NCBI RefSeq assembly: GCF_013122565.1
Contig: NZ_CP053258.1
DNA: 64,000 nt
Reading direction: 5' to 3' (one strand)
Source of the DNA: Escherichia coli
Lineage (GTDB): Bacteria > Pseudomonadota > Gammaproteobacteria > Enterobacterales > Enterobacteriaceae
The notes beneath the pieces were generated by a model. The model made no database searches and was not told where the DNA came from. It was given only the letters and a program-made list of their open reading frames with translations. The translations under genes were made by a program, and so were the position numbers. Positions 4,000 to 54,789 of this stretch are shown here, in pieces; the stretch's first letter is position 1, and every line of letters starts with the position of its first letter.

Positions 4000-4329
4000 T
4001 TACGCCAGGTTAGCGTCGAGGAACTCTTTCAACTGACCTTTAGACAGTGCACCCACTTTGGTTGCCGCCACTTCACCGTTTTTGAACAGCAGCAGAGTCG
4101 GGATACCACGGATGCCATATTTCGGCGCAGTGCCAGGGTTTTGATCGATGTTCAGTTTTGCAACGGTCAGTTTGCCCTGATATTCGTCAGCGATTTCATC
4201 CAGAATCGGGGCGATCATTTTGCACGGACCGCACCACTCTGCCCAGAAATCGACGAGGATCGCCCCGTCCGCTTTGAGTACATCCGTGTCAAAACTGTCG
4301 TCAGTCAGGTGAATAATTTTATCGCTCAT
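4000..4329 (-). CDS. trxA: Thioredoxin 1
   Basis: ORF 4000..4434 contains [37 protein letters not shown] (WCGPC active site); start set at MSDK for 109 aa. Confidence 0.95.
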
Positions 4330-4459
4330 ATATAACTCCACAGGAATAAGCCTGGCGTGTTGGTTTCGTTGTTGGTGTAACATTAACCAACTAAAGGTTG
4401 ACTTTATTTCACCGGATACGCTTTCGTAAAGCAATAGTAAGCTGATATTCTACCACACT

Positions 4460-23172: not shown

Positions 23173-23292
23173 ATGCCTGGCAGTTCCCTACTCTCGCATG
23201 GGGAGACCCCACACTACCATCGGCGCTACGGCGTTTCACTTCTGAGTTCGGCATGGGGTCAGGTGGGACCACCGCGCTACGGCTGCCAGGCA
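23173..23292 (-). rRNA. rrfC: 5S ribosomal RNA
   Basis: 120 nt; reverse complement begins TGCCTGGCAGCCGTAGCGCGGTGGTCCCACCTGACCCCATGCCGAACTCAG and ends ...GGGAACTGCCAGGCAT. Confidence 0.95.
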
Positions 23293-23384
23293 AATTCTGT
23301 TTTATCAGACCGCTTCTGCGTTCTGATTTAATCTGGATCAGGCTGAAAATCTTCTCTCATCCGCCAAAACATCTTCGGCGTTGT

Positions 23385-26288
<2,904 letters not shown>

Positions 26289-26481
26289 TCACAACCCGAA
26301 GATGTTTCTTGCGATTCATCATCGTGTTGCGAAAATTTGAGAGACTCACGAACAACTTTCGTTGTTCAGTGTTTCAATTTTCAGCTTGATCCAGATTTTT
26401 AAAGAGCAAATATCTCAAACAAGACTTAACAGTCTGTTTTGAGATATTGAGGTCGGCGACTTTCACTCACAAACCAGCAAG

Positions 26482-26557
26482 TGGCGTCCCCTAGGGGATT
26501 CGAACCCCTGTTACCGCCGTGAAAGGGCGGTGTCCTGGGCCTCTAGACGAAGGGGAC
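26482..26557 (-). tRNA. gltU: tRNA-Glu (anticodon UUC) in the 16S-23S spacer
   Basis: Reverse complement reads GTCCCCTTCGTCTAGAGGCCCAGGACACCGCCCTTTCACGGCGGTAACAGGGGTTCGAATCCCCTAGGGGACGCCA. Confidence 0.95.
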
Positions 26558-26642
26558 GTATCAGTCTGCTTCGCAAGACGCCTTGCTTTTCACTTTCTAT
26601 CAGACAATCTGTGTGAGCACTGCAAAGTACGCTTCTTTAAGG

Positions 26643-28184
<1,542 letters not shown>

Positions 28185-28365
28185 AAAAGTTTGATGCTCA
28201 AAGAATTAAACTTCGTAATGAATTACGTGTTCACTCTTGAGACTTGGTATTCATTTTTCGTCTTGCGACGTTAAGAATCCGTATCTTCGAGTGCCCACAC
28301 AGATTGTCTGATAAATTGTTAAAGAGCAGTGCCGCTTCGCTTTTTCTCAGCGGCGCGGGGTGTGC

Positions 28366-28393
28366 ATAATACGCTTTCCCGCCACAGAGTCAA
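28366..28393 (-). promoter_or_regulatory. rRNA operon promoter P2
   Basis: Minus strand has TTGACT (28388-28393), a 16-bp spacer and TATTAT (28366-28371), followed by GC-rich discriminator GCACACCCCGCGCC and the boxA-like TGCTCTTTAACAA antitermination motif (28318-28330). Confidence 0.8.
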
Positions 28394-42988: not shown

Positions 42989-43447
42989 ATGGAAAATTAT
43001 CTGATCGACAATCTGGACCGAGGCATCCTGGAAGCATTAATGGGCAATGCGCGCACCGCTTACGCCGAACTGGCGAAACAATTTGGCGTCAGTCCGGGGA
43101 CGATTCACGTTCGAGTAGAGAAAATGAAGCAGGCGGGAATCATTACCGGGGCGCGTATTGATGTCAGCCCGAAGCAGCTCGGTTATGACGTAGGCTGCTT
43201 TATCGGCATTATATTAAAGAGCGCCAAAGACTATCCTTCGGCGCTGGCGAAACTGGAAAGCCTTGATGAAGTGACCGAGGCGTACTACACCACCGGCCAC
43301 TACAGCATCTTTATAAAAGTGATGTGCCGTTCGATCGATGCTCTCCAGCATGTACTTATCAACAAGATCCAAACAATTGATGAAATTCAGTCCACCGAGA
43401 CATTGATCGTCCTGCAGAACCCGATCATGCGTACCATCAAGCCCTGA
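42989..43447 (+). CDS. asnC: Lrp/AsnC-family transcriptional regulator AsnC
   Basis: 152-aa ORF MENYLIDNLDRGILEALMGNARTAYAELAKQFGVSPGTIHVRVEKMKQAGIITGARIDV... Confidence 0.95.
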   Translation: MENYLIDNLDRGILEALMGNARTAYAELAKQFGVSPGTIHVRVEKMKQAGIITGARIDVSPKQLGYDVGCFIGIILKSAKDYPSALAKLESLDEVTEAYYTTGHYSIFIKVMCRSIDALQHVLINKIQTIDEIQSTETLIVLQNPIMRTIKP

Positions 43448-43460
43448 TCGGCTTTTTTAA
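43439..43460 (+). terminator. Short terminator-like hairpin at the asnC 3' end
   Basis: aagcc-ctgatc-ggctt followed by ttttt, overlapping the asnC stop; a DnaA-box-like ttttccaca follows at about 43469-43477 in the mioC promoter region. Confidence 0.5.
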
Positions 43461-43536
43461 TCCCATACTTTTCCACAGGTAGATCCCAACGCGTTCACAG
43501 CGTACAATACGCCACTCTTAATAAAGGTGGCGGTTT

Positions 43537-43980
43537 ATGGCAGATATCACTCTTATCAGCGGCAGCACCCTCGGCGGTGCCGAATATGTAGCAGAACACC
43601 TGGCTGAAAAGCTGGAAGAGGCGGGTTTTACCACCGAAACGCTGCACGGTCCGCTGTTGGAAGATTTATCTGCCTCTGGGATCTGGCTGGTTATCAGCTC
43701 AACCCACGGTGCCGGAGATATTCCGGACAACCTTTCTCCTTTCTATGAAGCATTGCAGGAACAGAAGCCCGATCTTTCTGCGGTCCGCTTTGGCGCAATC
43801 GGTATTGGTAGTCGAGAATATGACACCTTTTGTGGGGCTATCGATAAACTCGAGGCAGAACTCAAAAATTCCGGTGCAAAACAGACAGGCGAAACACTGA
43901 AGATCAACATTCTTGATCACGACATTCCGGAAGATCCGGCAGAAGAATGGCTGGGATCGTGGATTAATTTACTCAAATAA
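43537..43980 (+). CDS. mioC: Flavodoxin-like FMN protein MioC
   Basis: 147-aa ORF MADITLISGSTLGGAEYVAEHLAEKLEEAGFTTETLHGPLLEDL...; transcribed toward oriC. Confidence 0.95.
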   Translation: MADITLISGSTLGGAEYVAEHLAEKLEEAGFTTETLHGPLLEDLSASGIWLVISSTHGAGDIPDNLSPFYEALQEQKPDLSAVRFGAIGIGSREYDTFCGAIDKLEAELKNSGAKQTGETLKINILDHDIPEDPAEEWLGSWINLLK

Positions 43981-43997
43981 GCATACAGATCGTGCGA

Positions 43998-44270
43998 TCT
44001 ACTGTGGATAACTCTGTCAGGAAGCTTGGATCAACCGGTAGTTATCCAAAGAACAACCGTTGTTCAGTTTTTGAGTTGTGTATAACCCCTCATTCTGATC
44101 CCAGCTTATACGGTCCAGGATCACCGATCATTCACAGCTAATGATCCTTTCCAGGTTGTTGATCTTAAAAGCCGGATCCTTGTTATCCACAGGGCAGTGC
44201 GATCCTAATAAGAGATCACAATAGAACAGATCTCTAAATAAATAGATCTTCTTTTTAATACCCAGGATCC
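43998..44270. other. Chromosomal replication origin oriC
   Basis: DnaA boxes tgtggataa (44004-44012) and ttatccaca (44183-44191) plus further 9-mers; three AT-rich 13-mers ctaataagagatc / aatagaacagatc / aaataaatagatc (about 44205-44248); at least 11 GATC sites in about 280 bp; sits between mioC and mnmG (gidA). Confidence 0.95.
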
Positions 44271-44358
44271 CAGGTCTTTCTCAAGCCGACAAAGTTGAGT
44301 AGAATCCACGGCCCGGGCTTCAATCCATTTTCATACCGCGTTATGCGAGGCAATCACC

Positions 44359-46248
44359 ATGTTTTATCCGGATCCTTTTGACGTCATCATCATTGGCGGG
44401 GGTCATGCAGGCACCGAGGCCGCGATGGCCGCGGCGCGTATGGGTCAACAGACTCTGCTTTTGACACACAATATCGACACTCTGGGGCAGATGAGCTGCA
44501 ACCCGGCGATCGGCGGTATTGGGAAGGGACATCTGGTAAAAGAAGTGGATGCACTCGGCGGTCTGATGGCGAAAGCGATCGATCAGGCGGGTATCCAGTT
44601 TAGGATACTAAACGCAAGCAAGGGACCGGCAGTTCGCGCTACCCGAGCTCAGGCGGATCGTGTGCTCTACCGTCAGGCGGTACGTACGGCGCTGGAGAAC
44701 CAACCGAACCTGATGATCTTCCAGCAGGCGGTTGAAGATCTTATTGTCGAAAACGATCGCGTGGTCGGTGCTGTTACCCAAATGGGACTGAAGTTCCGTG
44801 CCAAAGCCGTCGTGCTCACCGTTGGGACGTTCCTCGACGGTAAAATTCATATCGGTCTGGATAACTACAGCGGTGGCCGTGCTGGTGATCCGCCGTCCAT
44901 TCCGCTTTCTCGCCGTTTGCGTGAACTGCCGCTGCGCGTTGGTCGTCTGAAAACCGGGACACCACCGCGTATTGATGCTCGAACCATCGACTTTAGCGTG
45001 CTGGCGCAACAGCATGGTGATAACCCAATGCCGGTATTCTCGTTTATGGGCAGTGCGTCCCAGCATCCCCAGCAGGTGCCGTGTTATATCACTCATACCA
45101 ACGAGAAAACCCATGATGTGATCCGCAGTAACCTCGATCGTAGCCCAATGTACGCAGGGGTGATCGAAGGTGTCGGCCCACGCTACTGCCCGTCGATCGA
45201 AGACAAAGTCATGCGCTTCGCCGACAGAAATCAGCATCAGATCTTCCTTGAACCGGAAGGGCTGACCTCTAACGAAATTTATCCGAATGGTATCTCCACC
45301 AGCCTGCCGTTCGATGTGCAGATGCAAATCGTCCGCTCTATGCAGGGGATGGAAAACGCGAAGATCGTGCGTCCGGGTTATGCCATTGAGTATGACTTCT
45401 TCGATCCTCGCGACCTGAAACCGACGCTGGAGAGCAAGTTTATCCAGGGGCTGTTCTTTGCTGGTCAAATTAACGGCACTACCGGTTACGAAGAAGCCGC
45501 TGCGCAAGGTTTGCTGGCTGGTCTTAACGCTGCCCGTCTGTCTGCAGACAAAGAAGGTTGGGCTCCGGCGCGTTCTCAGGCGTATCTCGGAGTACTAGTT
45601 GATGACCTGTGCACTTTAGGAACCAAAGAACCGTATCGTATGTTTACTTCGCGCGCAGAATATCGTCTGATGCTGCGCGAAGATAATGCGGATCTGCGTT
45701 TGACTGAAATTGGTCGTGAACTGGGCCTGGTGGATGACGAACGTTGGGCGCGCTTTAACGAGAAACTTGAGAATATCGAGCGTGAGCGTCAGCGTCTGAA
45801 ATCGACCTGGGTAACCCCGTCGGCGGAAGCTGCAGCCGAAGTGAATGCTCACCTGACTGCGCCGCTTTCCCGTGAAGCCAGTGGTGAAGATCTGCTGCGT
45901 CGTCCGGAAATGACTTATGAAAAATTAACCACGCTGACGCCGTTTGCCCCTGCGTTGACAGACGAACAGGCGGCGGAACAGGTTGAGATTCAGGTTAAAT
46001 ACGAAGGTTATATCGCGCGCCAGCAAGATGAGATCGAAAAGCAGCTGCGTAACGAGAACACCCTGCTACCCGCGACACTGGATTACCGCCAGGTATCCGG
46101 TCTTTCTAACGAAGTGATCGCCAAACTTAACGATCACAAACCGGCCTCTATCGGCCAGGCTTCACGTATTTCTGGCGTCACGCCTGCGGCCATCTCCATT
46201 CTGCTGGTGTGGCTGAAAAAACAGGGTATGCTGCGTCGTAGCGCATAA
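44359..46248 (+). CDS. mnmG: tRNA uridine-5-carboxymethylaminomethyl modification enzyme MnmG (GidA)
   Basis: 629-aa [65 protein letters not shown] (FAD-binding GxGxxG). Confidence 0.95.
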
Positions 46249-46935: not shown

Positions 46936-47551
46936 TTTTTATCAAAAAAATCATAAAAAATTGACCGGTTAGACTGTTAACAACAACCAGGTTTTCTACT
47001 GATATAACTGGTTACATTTAACGCCACGTTCACTCTTTTGCATCAACAAGATAACGTGGCTTTTTTTGGTAAGCAGAAAATAAGTCATTAGTGAAAATAT
47101 CAGTCTGCTAAAAATCGGCGCTAAGAATCATCATTGGCTGTTAAAACATTATTAAAAATGTCAATGGGTGGTTTTTGTTGTGTAAATGTCATTTATTAAA
47201 ACAGTATCTGTTTTTAGACTGAAATATCATAAACTTGCAAAGGCATCATTTGCCAAGTAAATAAATATGCTGTGCGCGAACATGCTCAATATGTGATCTG
47301 AAGCACGCTTTATCACCAGTGTTTACGCGTTATTTACAGTTTTTCATGATCGAACAGGGTTAGCAGAAAAGTCGCAATTGTATGCACTGGAAAAATATTT
47401 AAACATTTATTCACCTTTTGGCTACTTATTGTTTGAAATCACGGGGGCGCACCGTATAATTTGACCGCTTTTTGATGCTTGACTCTAAGCCTTAAAGAAA
47501 GTTTTATACGACACGCGGCATACCTCGAAGGGAGCAGGAGTGAAAAACGTG

Positions 47552-48756
<1,205 letters not shown>

Positions 48757-48784
48757 TTTACCAACACTACTACGTTTTAACTGA

Positions 48785-49059
<275 letters not shown>

Positions 49060-49103
49060 TAAAGAGCAATATCAGAACGTTAACTAAATAGAGGCATTGT
49101 GCT

Positions 49104-49574
49104 GTGAATCTTAACGCAACAATCCTCGGCCAGGCCATCGCGTTTGTCCTGTTCGTTCTGTTCTGCATGAAGTACGTATGGCCGCCATTAATGGCAGCCA
49201 TCGAAAAACGTCAAAAAGAAATTGCTGACGGCCTTGCTTCCGCAGAACGAGCACATAAGGACCTTGACCTTGCAAAGGCCAGCGCGACCGACCAGCTGAA
49301 AAAAGCGAAAGCGGAAGCCCAGGTAATCATCGAGCAGGCGAACAAACGCCGCTCGCAGATTCTGGACGAAGCGAAAGCTGAGGCAGAACAGGAACGTACT
49401 AAAATCGTGGCCCAGGCGCAGGCGGAAATTGAAGCTGAGCGTAAACGTGCCCGTGAAGAGCTGCGTAAGCAAGTTGCTATCCTGGCTGTTGCTGGCGCCG
49501 AGAAGATCATCGAACGTTCCGTGGATGAAGCTGCTAACAGCGACATCGTGGATAAACTTGTCGCTGAACTGTAA
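49104..49574 (+). CDS. atpF: F0F1 ATP synthase subunit b
   Basis: 156-aa ORF from GTG 49104 ([44 protein letters not shown]...). Confidence 0.95.
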
Positions 49575-49588
49575 GGAGGGAGGGGCTG

Positions 49589-50122
49589 ATGTCTGAATTT
49601 ATTACGGTAGCTCGCCCCTACGCCAAAGCAGCTTTTGACTTTGCCGTCGAACACCAAAGTGTAGAACGCTGGCAGGACATGCTGGCGTTTGCCGCCGAGG
49701 TAACCAAAAACGAACAAATGGCAGAGCTTCTCTCTGGCGCGCTTGCGCCAGAAACGCTCGCCGAGTCGTTTATCGCAGTTTGTGGTGAGCAACTGGACGA
49801 AAACGGTCAGAACCTGATTCGGGTTATGGCTGAAAATGGTCGTCTTAACGCGCTCCCGGATGTTCTGGAGCAGTTTATTCACCTGCGTGCCGTGAGTGAG
49901 GCTACCGCTGAGGTAGACGTCATTTCCGCTGCCGCACTGAGTGAACAACAGCTCGCGAAAATTTCTGCTGCGATGGAAAAACGTCTGTCACGCAAAGTTA
50001 AGCTGAATTGCAAAATCGATAAGTCTGTAATGGCAGGCGTTATCATCCGAGCGGGTGATATGGTCATTGATGGCAGCGTACGCGGTCGTCTTGAGCGCCT
50101 TGCAGACGTCTTGCAGTCTTAA
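49589..50122 (+). CDS. atpH: F0F1 ATP synthase subunit delta
   Basis: 177-aa [51 protein letters not shown]... Confidence 0.95.
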
Positions 50123-50134
50123 GGGGACTGGAGC

Positions 50135-51676
50135 ATGCAACTGAATTCCACCGAAATCAGCGAACTGATCAAGCAGCGCATTGCTCAGTTCAATGTTGTG
50201 AGTGAAGCTCACAACGAAGGTACTATTGTTTCTGTAAGTGACGGTGTTATCCGCATTCACGGCCTGGCCGATTGTATGCAGGGTGAAATGATCTCCCTGC
50301 CGGGTAACCGTTACGCTATCGCACTGAACCTCGAGCGCGACTCTGTTGGTGCGGTTGTTATGGGTCCGTATGCTGACCTTGCCGAAGGCATGAAAGTTAA
50401 GTGTACTGGCCGTATCCTGGAAGTTCCGGTTGGCCGTGGCCTGCTGGGCCGTGTGGTTAACACTCTGGGGGCACCAATCGACGGTAAAGGTCCGCTGGAT
50501 CACGACGGCTTCTCTGCTGTAGAAGCAATCGCTCCGGGCGTTATCGAACGTCAGTCCGTAGATCAGCCGGTACAGACCGGTTATAAAGCCGTTGACTCCA
50601 TGATCCCAATTGGTCGTGGTCAGCGTGAATTGATCATCGGTGACCGTCAGACCGGTAAAACCGCACTGGCTATCGATGCCATCATCAACCAGCGCGATTC
50701 CGGTATCAAATGTATCTATGTCGCTATCGGCCAGAAAGCGTCCACCATTTCTAACGTGGTACGTAAACTGGAAGAGCACGGCGCACTGGCTAACACCATC
50801 GTTGTGGTAGCAACCGCGTCTGAATCCGCTGCACTGCAATACCTGGCACCGTACGCTGGTTGCGCAATGGGCGAATACTTCCGTGACCGCGGTGAAGATG
50901 CGCTGATCATTTACGATGACCTGTCTAAACAGGCTGTTGCTTACCGTCAGATCTCCCTGCTGCTCCGTCGTCCGCCAGGACGTGAAGCATTCCCGGGCGA
51001 CGTATTCTACCTCCACTCTCGTCTGCTGGAGCGTGCTGCGCGTGTTAACGCCGAATACGTTGAAGCTTTCACCAAAGGTGAAGTGAAAGGGAAAACCGGT
51101 TCACTGACCGCGCTGCCGATTATCGAAACTCAAGCGGGTGACGTTTCTGCGTTCGTTCCGACCAACGTAATCTCCATTACCGATGGTCAGATCTTCCTGG
51201 AAACCAACCTGTTCAACGCCGGTATTCGTCCTGCGGTTAACCCGGGTATTTCCGTATCCCGTGTTGGTGGTGCAGCACAGACCAAGATCATGAAAAAACT
51301 GTCCGGTGGTATCCGTACCGCTCTGGCACAGTATCGTGAACTGGCAGCGTTCTCTCAGTTTGCATCCGACCTTGACGATGCAACTCGTAAGCAGCTTGAC
51401 CACGGTCAAAAAGTGACCGAACTGCTGAAACAGAAACAGTATGCGCCGATGTCCGTTGCGCAGCAGTCTCTGGTTCTGTTCGCAGCAGAACGTGGTTACC
51501 TGGCGGATGTTGAACTGTCGAAAATCGGCAGCTTCGAAGCCGCTCTGCTGGCTTACGTCGACCGTGATCACGCTCCGTTGATGCAAGAGATCAACCAGAC
51601 CGGTGGCTACAACGACGAAATCGAAGGCAAGCTGAAAGGCATCCTCGATTCCTTCAAAGCAACCCAATCCTGGTAA
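50135..51676 (+). CDS. atpA: F0F1 ATP synthase subunit alpha
   Basis: 513-aa ORF with Walker A GDRQTGKT ([44 protein letters not shown]...). Confidence 0.95.
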
Positions 51677-51726
51677 CGTCTGGCGGCTTGTCTTAGGGCA
51701 GGCCGCAAGGCATTGAGGAGAAGCTC

Positions 51727-53999
<2,273 letters not shown>

Positions 54000-54019
54000 C
54001 GCCTTAATCGGAGGGTGAT

Positions 54020-54439
54020 ATGGCAATGACTTACCACCTGGACGTCGTCAGCGCAGAGCAACAAATGTTCTCTGGTCTGGTCGAGAAAATCCAGGTAACG
54101 GGTAGCGAAGGTGAACTGGGGATCTACCCTGGCCACGCACCGCTGCTCACCGCCATTAAGCCTGGTATGATTCGCATCGTGAAACAGCACGGTCACGAAG
54201 AGTTTATCTATCTGTCTGGCGGCATTCTTGAAGTGCAGCCTGGCAACGTGACCGTTCTGGCCGATACCGCAATTCGCGGCCAGGATCTCGACGAAGCGCG
54301 AGCCATGGAAGCGAAACGTAAGGCTGAAGAGCACATTAGCAGCTCTCACGGCGACGTAGATTACGCTCAGGCGTCTGCGGAACTGGCCAAAGCGATCGCG
54401 CAGCTGCGCGTTATCGAGTTGACCAAAAAAGCGATGTAA
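54020..54439 (+). CDS. atpC: F0F1 ATP synthase subunit epsilon
   Basis: 139-aa [57 protein letters not shown]... Confidence 0.95.
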
Positions 54440-54491: not shown

Positions 54492-54789
54492 ACGCGTTGA
54501 CCCGTCCTGAAGAGCGTTCACATAGATCCTGCTGATATAAAACCCCCTGTTTTCCCGTTTATTCATTGATCGAAATAAGAGCAAAAACATCCACCTGACG
54601 CTTAAATGAAGGTACTGTCTTAATTTTTGGCAGACAAATGGCGTGACTATGGTTGAAAATGGCGCTTTCGTCAGCGGGGATAATCCGTTATTGAACAATT
54701 TATCCTCTGTCCATTTCACGATGAAAAAAATGTAGTTTTTTCAAGGTGAAGCGGTTTAAATTCGTTCTCAAATTACAGTCAGGACGCGT

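What the first reader, a model, noticed from the sequence alone, without database searches (positions are those of the whole stretch)
43998..44270. Complete oriC with canonical architecture lies inside the window
All hallmark elements are present and in the standard order: three AT-rich 13-mers on the mnmG side, DnaA R boxes, and a dense GATC cluster. It is flanked by mioC and asnC reading toward the origin and mnmG reading away. This is not novel, but it anchors the window at the replication origin and explains the strand organisation of the surrounding highly expressed operons (atp, rrn).
Basis: partly seen in the sequence, partly recalled or inferred. Interest (0 to 1): 0.2.

Follow-up and report, generated by a model that had tools for sequence, protein, structure and literature searches.

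The report
Ordinary Escherichia chromosomal replication origin (oriC)
This stretch is the standard, intact chromosomal replication origin (oriC) of an Escherichia bacterium, nearly identical to the textbook E. coli K-12 origin, so it is a useful landmark but not a discovery.

Summary
The whole mioC-mnmG intergenic region (window 43981-44358, minus strand) aligns without gaps to E. coli K-12 MG1655 over 378 columns. There are three substitutions, and none falls in a 13-mer or a DnaA box.

All named elements are present in the K-12 order and spacing:
- the AT-cluster and the L, M and R 13-mers on the mnmG side;
- DnaA boxes R1, R5M, R2, R3 and R4;
- the IHF core and the Fis motif;
- 11 GATC sites in the minimal origin.

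Clustering is far beyond chance: 12 GATC against 1.4 expected, and 3 of the window's 7 perfect DnaA boxes within 273 bp.

Other checks agree. AsnC, MioC, MnmG and RsmG pass the curated family cut-offs. Cumulative G-C reaches its minimum at 44391. rrnC (left, minus strand) and atp (right, plus strand) both point away from the origin.

One detail is mildly unusual. G at oriC position 133, two bases from R5M, is absent from 5,414 complete E. coli genomes. It is the normal base in E. albertii, Citrobacter, Enterobacter, Erwinia and others, and it recurs in two independent assemblies. The source lineage lies slightly outside sampled E. coli (98.2-98.9% identity). The feature is already known and of low interest.

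The parts
44003..44260 (-). oriC proper, from the AT-cluster to DnaA box R4 (classical positions 11-268). The 232-bp oriC annotated in RefSeq for MG1655 corresponds to window 44017-44248 and leaves out R4.
   Evidence: Ungapped alignment to MG1655 with 3 substitutions in 378 columns. RefSeq origin_of_replication feature. Element map.
44249..44260 (-). AT-cluster TATTAAAAAGAA flanking the L 13-mer
   Evidence: Identical to K-12. The AT-rich 12-bp element is described in PMC10380432.
44236..44248 (-). 13-mer L, GATCTATTTATTT (DUE)
   Evidence: identical to K-12
44220..44232 (-). 13-mer M, GATCTGTTCTATT (DUE)
   Evidence: identical to K-12
44205..44217 (-). 13-mer R, GATCTCTTATTAG (DUE)
   Evidence: identical to K-12. 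The TT[A/G]T motifs at oriC positions 30, 50 and 60 are retained.
44183..44191 (+). DnaA box R1, TTATCCACA (perfect consensus)
44152..44164 (-). IHF-binding core GATCAACAACCTG (IBS1). It is the only match to WATCAANNNNTTR with at most 2 mismatches in the R1-R5M interspace.
   Evidence: identical to K-12. An IHF site between R1 and R5M is described in PMC10325909 and PMC10380432.
44095..44147 (+). Left-half low-affinity DnaA-box array: tau1 44139-44147, R5M 44128-44136 (TCATTCACA), tau2 44117-44125, I1 44106-44114, I2 44095-44103. The lineage-specific substitution (oriC position 133 A>G) is at 44138, in the 2-bp gap between tau1 and R5M.
   Evidence: R5M. The other 9-mers were placed by the 2-bp spacing rule and from my recollection of the literature, and their positions were not independently verified. 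All are identical to K-12. The box list is given in PMC5716108.
44077..44085 (-). DnaA box R2, TTATACACA (perfect consensus)
44051..44065 (.). Palindromic Fis-consensus match GAACAAC[G]GTTGTTC (oriC positions 206-220). The variable position 213 is its central N.
   Evidence: consensus GnnYAnnnnnTRnnC from PMC10380432. The motif is common (104 in the window), so this is consistent with a Fis site rather than proof of one.
44015..44056 (-). Right-half low-affinity DnaA-box array (C3, C2, I3, C1), with R3 (TTATCCAAA on the + strand) at 44042-44050
   Evidence: R3. The C and I site positions were inferred from spacing and recollection and were not verified. The sequence is identical to K-12.
44003..44011 (-). 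DnaA box R4, TTATCCACA (perfect consensus)
44278..44305 (+). Sigma-70-like promoter TTCTCA-16-TAGAAT reading into mnmG, at the position of the gidA/mnmG promoter
   Evidence: consensus scan only. Calling it the gidA/mnmG promoter (PgidA) is my inference from established knowledge.
43537..43980 (+). mioC, reads toward and into oriC. No terminator-like site lies between its stop codon and oriC.
   Evidence: NCBIfam NF006531, 244.9 bits against a cut-off of 158; terminator scan
42989..43447 (+). asnC, reads toward oriC. A terminator-like hairpin is at 43439-43454.
   Evidence: NCBIfam NF008384, 300.7 bits against a cut-off of 227
43469..43477 (+). One-mismatch DnaA box TTTTCCACA in the asnC-mioC gap, upstream of mioC
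   Evidence: A role in DnaA repression of mioC transcription is inferred from the literature (PMC10380432).
44359..46248 (+). mnmG (gidA), reads away from oriC
   Evidence: TIGR00136, 1016.7 bits against a cut-off of 524.85
47540..54439 (+). atpIBEFHAGDC operon, co-directional with the rightward fork
   Evidence: ORFs, collinear with the annotated E. coli PT62
22960..28184 (-). rrnC-type operon (16S, tRNA-Glu, 23S, 5S, tRNA-Asp, tRNA-Trp), co-directional with the leftward fork
   Evidence: Rfam, ARAGORN, annotation of the collinear E. coli MJ-T

Best explanation
Window 44003-44260 (minus strand in the classical orientation) is the functional chromosomal replication origin, oriC, of an Escherichia strain, with the same architecture as E. 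coli K-12.

The mechanism below comes from established knowledge of E. coli oriC and is not shown here. DnaA occupies the high-affinity boxes R1, R2 and R4. ATP-DnaA then fills the oppositely oriented low-affinity arrays: R5M, tau2, I1 and I2 on the left, and C3 to C1 on the right. IHF bends the R1-R5M interspace. The adjacent AT-rich 13-mers (the DUE) then unwind and are held as single strands by the left DnaA subcomplex, and DnaB is loaded for bidirectional replication. The 11 GATC sites allow SeqA to sequester the hemimethylated origin after firing. Transcription from mioC (into oriC) and from mnmG (away from it) modulates initiation.

Shown here:
- sequence identity with K-12, with every element intact at its K-12 spacing;
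- the chromosomal context;
- the local switch in GC skew;
- co-orientation of the rrn and atp operons with the forks.

Inferred: that this copy actually fires.
For: - The mioC-mnmG intergenic region aligns to MG1655 over 378 of 378 ungapped columns with 3 substitutions. The MG1655 record annotates oriC there.
- The same region is present in 5,424 of 5,426 complete E. coli genomes, always on the chromosome, between mioC and mnmG.
- The 13-mers, R1, R5M, R2, R3 and R4 are found at the K-12 positions.
- There are 11 GATC in the minimal origin, as the literature states (PMC10380432).
- Clustering P values are 3e-8 to 3e-6.
- In an alignment of 31 enterobacterial origins, the 13-mer GATC anchors, R1, the R5M-I2 block, R2, R3 and R4 are conserved while the spacers diverge.
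- Cumulative G-C has its minimum at 44391, and skew is -0.040 on the left against +0.039 on the right.
- AsnC, MioC, MnmG and RsmG are confirmed.
- The whole window is collinear with E. coli, from wzzE to phoU.
- The exact intergenic sequence recurs in two independent assemblies.
Against: Nothing substantive.
- Function was not measured.
- GC skew was assessed over only 64 kb, not the whole replicon.
- The substitution at oriC position 133 (G) is absent from 5,414 complete E. coli genomes. However, it lies outside every box and is the normal base in many other Enterobacterales.
Confidence: 0.97

Rival explanations
1. A functionally tuned oriC variant. On this reading, the lineage-specific G at position 133, two bases from R5M and at the edge of the IHF-binding region, changes IHF, tau1 or R5M occupancy, and so changes initiation timing relative to E. 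coli sensu stricto.
For: - A at position 133 is fixed in 5,414 of 5,414 complete E. coli genomes that carry the 57-mer, and in 10 further assemblies.
- The window and two related assemblies carry G.
- R5M is the assembly core for the left DnaA subcomplex (PMC5716108).
Against: - The base lies in the 2-bp spacer, not in a box.
- G is the base in E. albertii, a roughly 94%-identical Escherichia lineage, Citrobacter, Enterobacter, Kosakonia, Buttiauxella, Erwinia and Pantoea. Both states therefore support working origins.
- The simplest reading is neutral retention of the ancestral base.
Confidence: 0.03
2. An inactive or redundant origin copy, for example a relic, with replication of this genome actually starting elsewhere or from a second oriC.
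For: None positive. Only 64 kb of the genome is visible, so a second origin elsewhere cannot be formally excluded.
Against: - All elements are intact and 99.2% identical to a proven origin.
- The native mioC/mnmG context is present.
- The local skew minimum coincides with the origin to within about 130 bp.
- Operon orientation fits firing from here.
Confidence: 0.01

Closest known systems
E. coli K-12 MG1655 oriC (NC_000913.3 3,925,744-3,925,975; classical 245-bp minimal origin)
   Same: The intergenic region has the same length (378 bp) with no indels. The AT-cluster, the L, M and R 13-mers, R1, the IHF core, R5M, tau2, I1, I2, R2, R3, R4 and all 11 GATC sites are identical. The flanking genes and their orientations are the same.
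   Different: There are three A>G substitutions in the classical strand, at oriC positions 133, 213 and 289 (window 44138, 44058 and 43982). Position 213 G also occurs in natural E. coli such as strain 120899, and the position is tri-allelic (A, G or C) among natural strains. G133 and G289 were not seen in any complete E. coli genome or in the 10 extra assemblies examined.
oriC of other Enterobacterales (E. albertii, Citrobacter, Enterobacter, Kosakonia, Buttiauxella, Erwinia, Pantoea)
   Same: They share the overall architecture and conserved blocks. They also share G at position 133, within the invariant 24-mer GGATCATTAGCTGTGAATGATCGG.
   Different: Their spacer sequences, the R1-IHF interspace and the region right of R3 are strongly diverged. 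The window is 91% identical to E. albertii and 94% identical to the nearest non-coli Escherichia representative over about 13 kb, against 98.2-98.9% to E. coli.

Membership tests
E. coli-type (enterobacterial) chromosomal oriC | Duplex-unwinding element: three tandem AT-rich 13-mers (GATCTnTTnTTTT) plus a flanking AT-cluster, next to R1 | tested here: met
   44205-44260; the 13-mers have 1, 1 and 2 mismatches; 76.8% A+T; identical to K-12
E. coli-type (enterobacterial) chromosomal oriC | High-affinity DnaA boxes R1 and R4 (perfect TTATNCACA) at the two ends of the DnaA-oligomerisation region, in opposite orientation, with R2 between them | tested here: met
   R1 at 44183-44191 (+), R2 at 44077-44085 (-), R4 at 44003-44011 (-); this is 3 of the window's 7 perfect boxes
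E. coli-type (enterobacterial) chromosomal oriC | Arrays of low-affinity DnaA sites (tau1, R5M, tau2, I1, I2; C3, C2, I3, C1) at fixed spacing | tested here: met
   The sequence across both arrays is identical to K-12 apart from spacer base 133. R5M and R3 were detected as one-mismatch boxes. The exact 9-mer boundaries of the tau, I and C sites come from spacing and recollection and were not independently verified.
E. coli-type (enterobacterial) chromosomal oriC | IHF site in the R1-R5M interspace and Fis site between R2 and R3 | tested here: met
   IHF core GATCAACAACCTG at 44152-44164. Fis-consensus palindrome at 44051-44065. Both are at the K-12 positions. Protein binding was not tested.
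E. coli-type (enterobacterial) chromosomal oriC | Dense Dam GATC cluster (11 sites in the minimal origin) for SeqA sequestration | tested here: met
   11 GATC in 44003-44248, and 12 in 43998-44270 against 1.38 expected. The literature count is in PMC10380432.
E. coli-type (enterobacterial) chromosomal oriC | Genomic context: between mioC (reading in) and mnmG/gidA (reading out) | tested here: met
   NCBIfam equivalog hits above the cut-offs; synteny with annotated E. coli genomes
E. coli-type (enterobacterial) chromosomal oriC | Change of sign of GC skew at the origin | tested here: met
   The cumulative G-C minimum is at 44391, with skew -0.040 on the left and +0.039 on the right. This covers the 64-kb window only; the whole replicon was not available.
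E. coli-type (enterobacterial) chromosomal oriC | DnaA-dependent initiation activity (autonomous replication, marker-frequency peak) | not testable with these tools
   This requires an experiment or read-depth data from growing cells.

The most novel reading that the evidence does not exclude
Position 133, beside R5M, might be a functional tuning site of the left DnaA-IHF subcomplex. On this reading, A133 is a derived change that became fixed in E. coli sensu stricto (0 of 5,414 complete genomes carry G). This window would then come from a little-sampled Escherichia lineage that keeps the ancestral G, with measurably different initiation control.
Probability: 0.04. Interest if true: 0.25.

Novelty: already known. 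Interest (0 to 1): 0.05.

Why it matters
Its value is as a landmark. It fixes the window at the replication origin. It also explains why the skew changes sign and why rrnC, atp and every protein-coding gene to the right point away from it. It adds nothing new to origin biology. The only marginal points are the ancestral-type base next to R5M, and that the source strain lies slightly outside the diversity of 5,426 complete E. coli genomes.

Tried and rejected
- Whole-window motif enrichment. TTATNCACA with at most 1 mismatch gave 55 matches against 45 expected. GATCTNTTNTTTT with at most 3 mismatches gave 164 against 166 expected. Neither is enriched overall, so I rested the statistical case on local clustering instead.
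- Sequencing error as the source of the private substitutions. Rejected: the identical 378-bp intergenic sequence occurs in two independent Logan assemblies, SRR11451224 (100% identical over 9,452 bp) and SRR11451197 (99.4%).
- G133 disrupting an element. Rejected: it sits in the 2-bp spacer, and the 24-mer containing it is exact in 39 species representatives across Enterobacterales.
- Naming the source organism. This failed.
  - The GTDB scan found only more distant Escherichia carrying G133, at 94.1% and 91.3% identity.
  - A literature search for the two SRR accessions found nothing.
  - The MioC allele is too common to be informative.
  - Shigella dysenteriae seems unlikely to me, because the 64 kb is fully collinear with E. 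coli and shows no IS insertions. That is inference only.
- The RefSeq oriC feature of MG1655 (232 bp) excludes R4, so I used the classical numbering instead.

Full report
**1. What is in the sequence**

Read on the minus strand, window 43998-44270 is immediately recognisable as enterobacterial oriC. A pattern search finds perfect DnaA boxes (TTATNCACA) at three places: 44183-44191 (+), 44077-44085 (-) and 44003-44011 (-). One-mismatch boxes lie at 44128-44136 (TCATTCACA) and 44042-44050 (TTATCCAAA).

Three head-to-tail 13-mers sit on the minus strand at 44236-44248, 44220-44232 and 44205-44217. They match GATCTNTTNTTTT with 1, 1 and 2 mismatches. A TATTAAAAAGAA AT-cluster precedes them at 44249-44260.

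This is the densest GATC cluster in the 64 kb.

**2. Is it more than chance?**

Across the whole window, neither the DnaA-box pattern nor the 13-mer pattern is enriched: 55 matches against 45 expected, and 164 against 166 expected. The signal is in the clustering. With the rest of the window as background, the 273 bp hold:
- 12 GATC against 1.38 expected (P about 3e-8);
- 3 perfect boxes against 0.017 expected (P about 8e-7);
- 5 boxes with at most one mismatch against 0.21 expected (P about 3e-6).

The DUE plus AT-cluster is 76.8% A+T, in the top 0.4% of 56-bp windows.

**3. Alignment to the reference**

The MG1655 record annotates oriC between mnmG and mioC. The complete intergenic region is 378 bp in both sequences. 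It aligns without a single gap and has three substitutions, all A>G in the classical strand. I took position 1 as the G of the GGATCC at window 44270. The substitutions are then at oriC positions 133 (window 44138), 213 (44058) and 289 (43982).

- Position 133 lies in the 2-bp gap next to R5M.
- Position 213 is the central unspecified base of a palindromic match to the Fis consensus, GAACAACNGTTGTTC, at oriC positions 206-220 (consensus from PMC10380432).
- Position 289 lies between R4 and the mioC stop codon, outside the origin.

The minimal origin holds 11 GATC, the number given in the literature (PMC10380432). The IHF core GATCAACAACCTG sits in the R1-R5M interspace, and the TT[A/G]T motifs of the DUE are retained. 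These fit the descriptions in PMC5716108, PMC10325909 and PMC10380432.

I placed the 9-mer boundaries of the tau, I and C sites by the 2-bp spacing rule and from recollection. They are not independently verified. Since the sequence there is identical to K-12, the conclusion does not depend on them.

**4. Natural variation**

The region is present in 5,424 of 5,426 complete E. coli genomes, always chromosomal and always between mioC and mnmG.

G at position 213 is shared with natural strains such as 120899. Across ten further assemblies, that position carries A, G or C. Those assemblies differ from the window at 3-7 of the 378 positions, so the window's origin is within the normal range of variation.

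G at position 133 is different. A 57-bp query centred on it finds 5,414 genomes, none of them identical. It is not a sequencing error, because the identical 378-bp sequence occurs in two independent assemblies: SRR11451224, which is 100% identical to the window over 9,452 bp, and SRR11451197, which is 99.4% identical.

Nor is it exotic. The 24-mer containing G133 is exact in 39 species representatives, including E. albertii, a roughly 94%-identical Escherichia, and many Citrobacter, Enterobacter, Kosakonia, Buttiauxella, Erwinia and Pantoea. In a 31-sequence alignment of these origins, the 13-mer anchors, R1, the R5M-tau2-I1-I2 block, R2, R3 and R4 are conserved while the spacers diverge. That alignment was selected for the 24-mer, so conservation of that block is partly by construction. 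The simplest reading is that G133 is the ancestral state and A133 is a derived state of E. coli sensu stricto.

**5. Surroundings**

The ORFs on either side are AsnC, MioC, MnmG and RsmG, all above the NCBIfam equivalog cut-offs. asnC and mioC read toward the origin. A terminator-like hairpin follows asnC, and none lies between mioC and oriC. A promoter-like site at 44278-44305 reads into mnmG.

The whole window is collinear with E. coli. From left to right it runs wzzE-wecA-rho-trxA-rhlB-gppA-rep-ppiC-ilvC-ilvY-ilvADEMG-yifB-maoP-hdfR-rrnC-yieP-mdtD-rbsRKBCAD-kup-ravA-viaA-asnA-asnC-mioC | oriC | mnmG-rsmG-atpIBEFHAGDC-glmUS-pstSCAB-phoU.

The rrn operon (16S, tRNA-Glu, 23S, 5S, tRNA-Asp, tRNA-Trp; 22960-28184) is on the minus strand to the left. 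All 21 protein genes to the right, including atp, are on the plus strand. Both arrangements are co-directional with forks leaving the origin.

GC skew is -0.040 to the left (-0.024 without rrnC) and +0.039 to the right. The cumulative G-C minimum is at 44391, about 130 bp from the origin's DUE end.

**6. Mechanism**

The mechanism is that of E. coli oriC, taken from the literature and not shown here. DnaA binds at R1, R2 and R4. ATP-DnaA fills the two oppositely oriented low-affinity arrays. IHF bends the R1-R5M interspace. The 13-mers unwind and the single strands are captured. DnaB is then loaded. After firing, SeqA sequesters the hemimethylated GATC sites (PMC5716108, PMC10325909, PMC10380432).

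**7. Source organism**

The best identity to any of 5,426 complete E. coli genomes is only 98.2-98.9% across the window. For comparison, MG1655 and PT62 are 99.0% identical over the 5.5 kb around the origin, and each is 98.7% identical to the window. The strain therefore lies slightly outside the sampled diversity of E. coli but well inside the genus. I could not name it.

**8. Verdict**

The feature is already known and of low interest.

Noticed in passing
window 63046-64000: Immediately after phoU the sequence turns AT-rich (39.8% G+C) and has no megablast match in any of 5,426 complete E. coli genomes. From about 63383 an ORF runs off the window end. It encodes a signal-peptide protein whose first 206 aa match Pfam DUF1120 (E 1e-25). 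This looks like a lineage-specific insertion at a variable spot; other E. coli carry bglG or a type III effector pseudogene there.
   Followed up: partly
whole window: The best identity to any complete RefSeq E. coli genome is only 98.2-98.9%, although gene order is identical. One Logan assembly (SRR11451224) is 100% identical over 9.4 kb, and another (SRR11451197) is 99.4% identical. The source seems to be an under-sampled Escherichia lineage, and it was not identified.
   Followed up: partly
window 44058 (oriC position 213): This base is tri-allelic among natural E. coli: A in K-12, G in the window and strain 120899, and C in several assemblies. It is the central base of a perfect palindrome that matches the Fis consensus.
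   Followed up: partly
window 61442-61531 (pstA-pstB gap): The intergenic region is about 85-92 bp shorter than in E. coli PT62, where the alignment breaks into two pieces. This is probably presence or absence of a repetitive extragenic element.
   Followed up: no
window 1424, 19992, 28361, 37692: Four perfect DnaA boxes lie outside oriC. The one at 28361-28369 sits about 180 bp upstream of the 16S gene of rrnC. A one-mismatch box (TTTTCCACA, 43469-43477) sits upstream of mioC.
   Followed up: no
window 54549-54706 (-), 19453-19742 (-), 4300-4399 (-), 26296-26404 (-): There are Rfam hits above the gathering score. STnc410 sRNA lies antisense in the atpC-glmU gap. Rev39 5'UTR lies over the ilv leader. 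The TrxA thermometer lies upstream of trxA. StyR-44 lies in the rrn spacer.
   Followed up: no
E. coli genome collection: Two of 5,426 complete E. coli genomes gave no megablast match to the 501 bp around oriC, and 57 more lacked 80% coverage in one place. These are probably records that start inside oriC, or rearranged or engineered strains.
   Followed up: no
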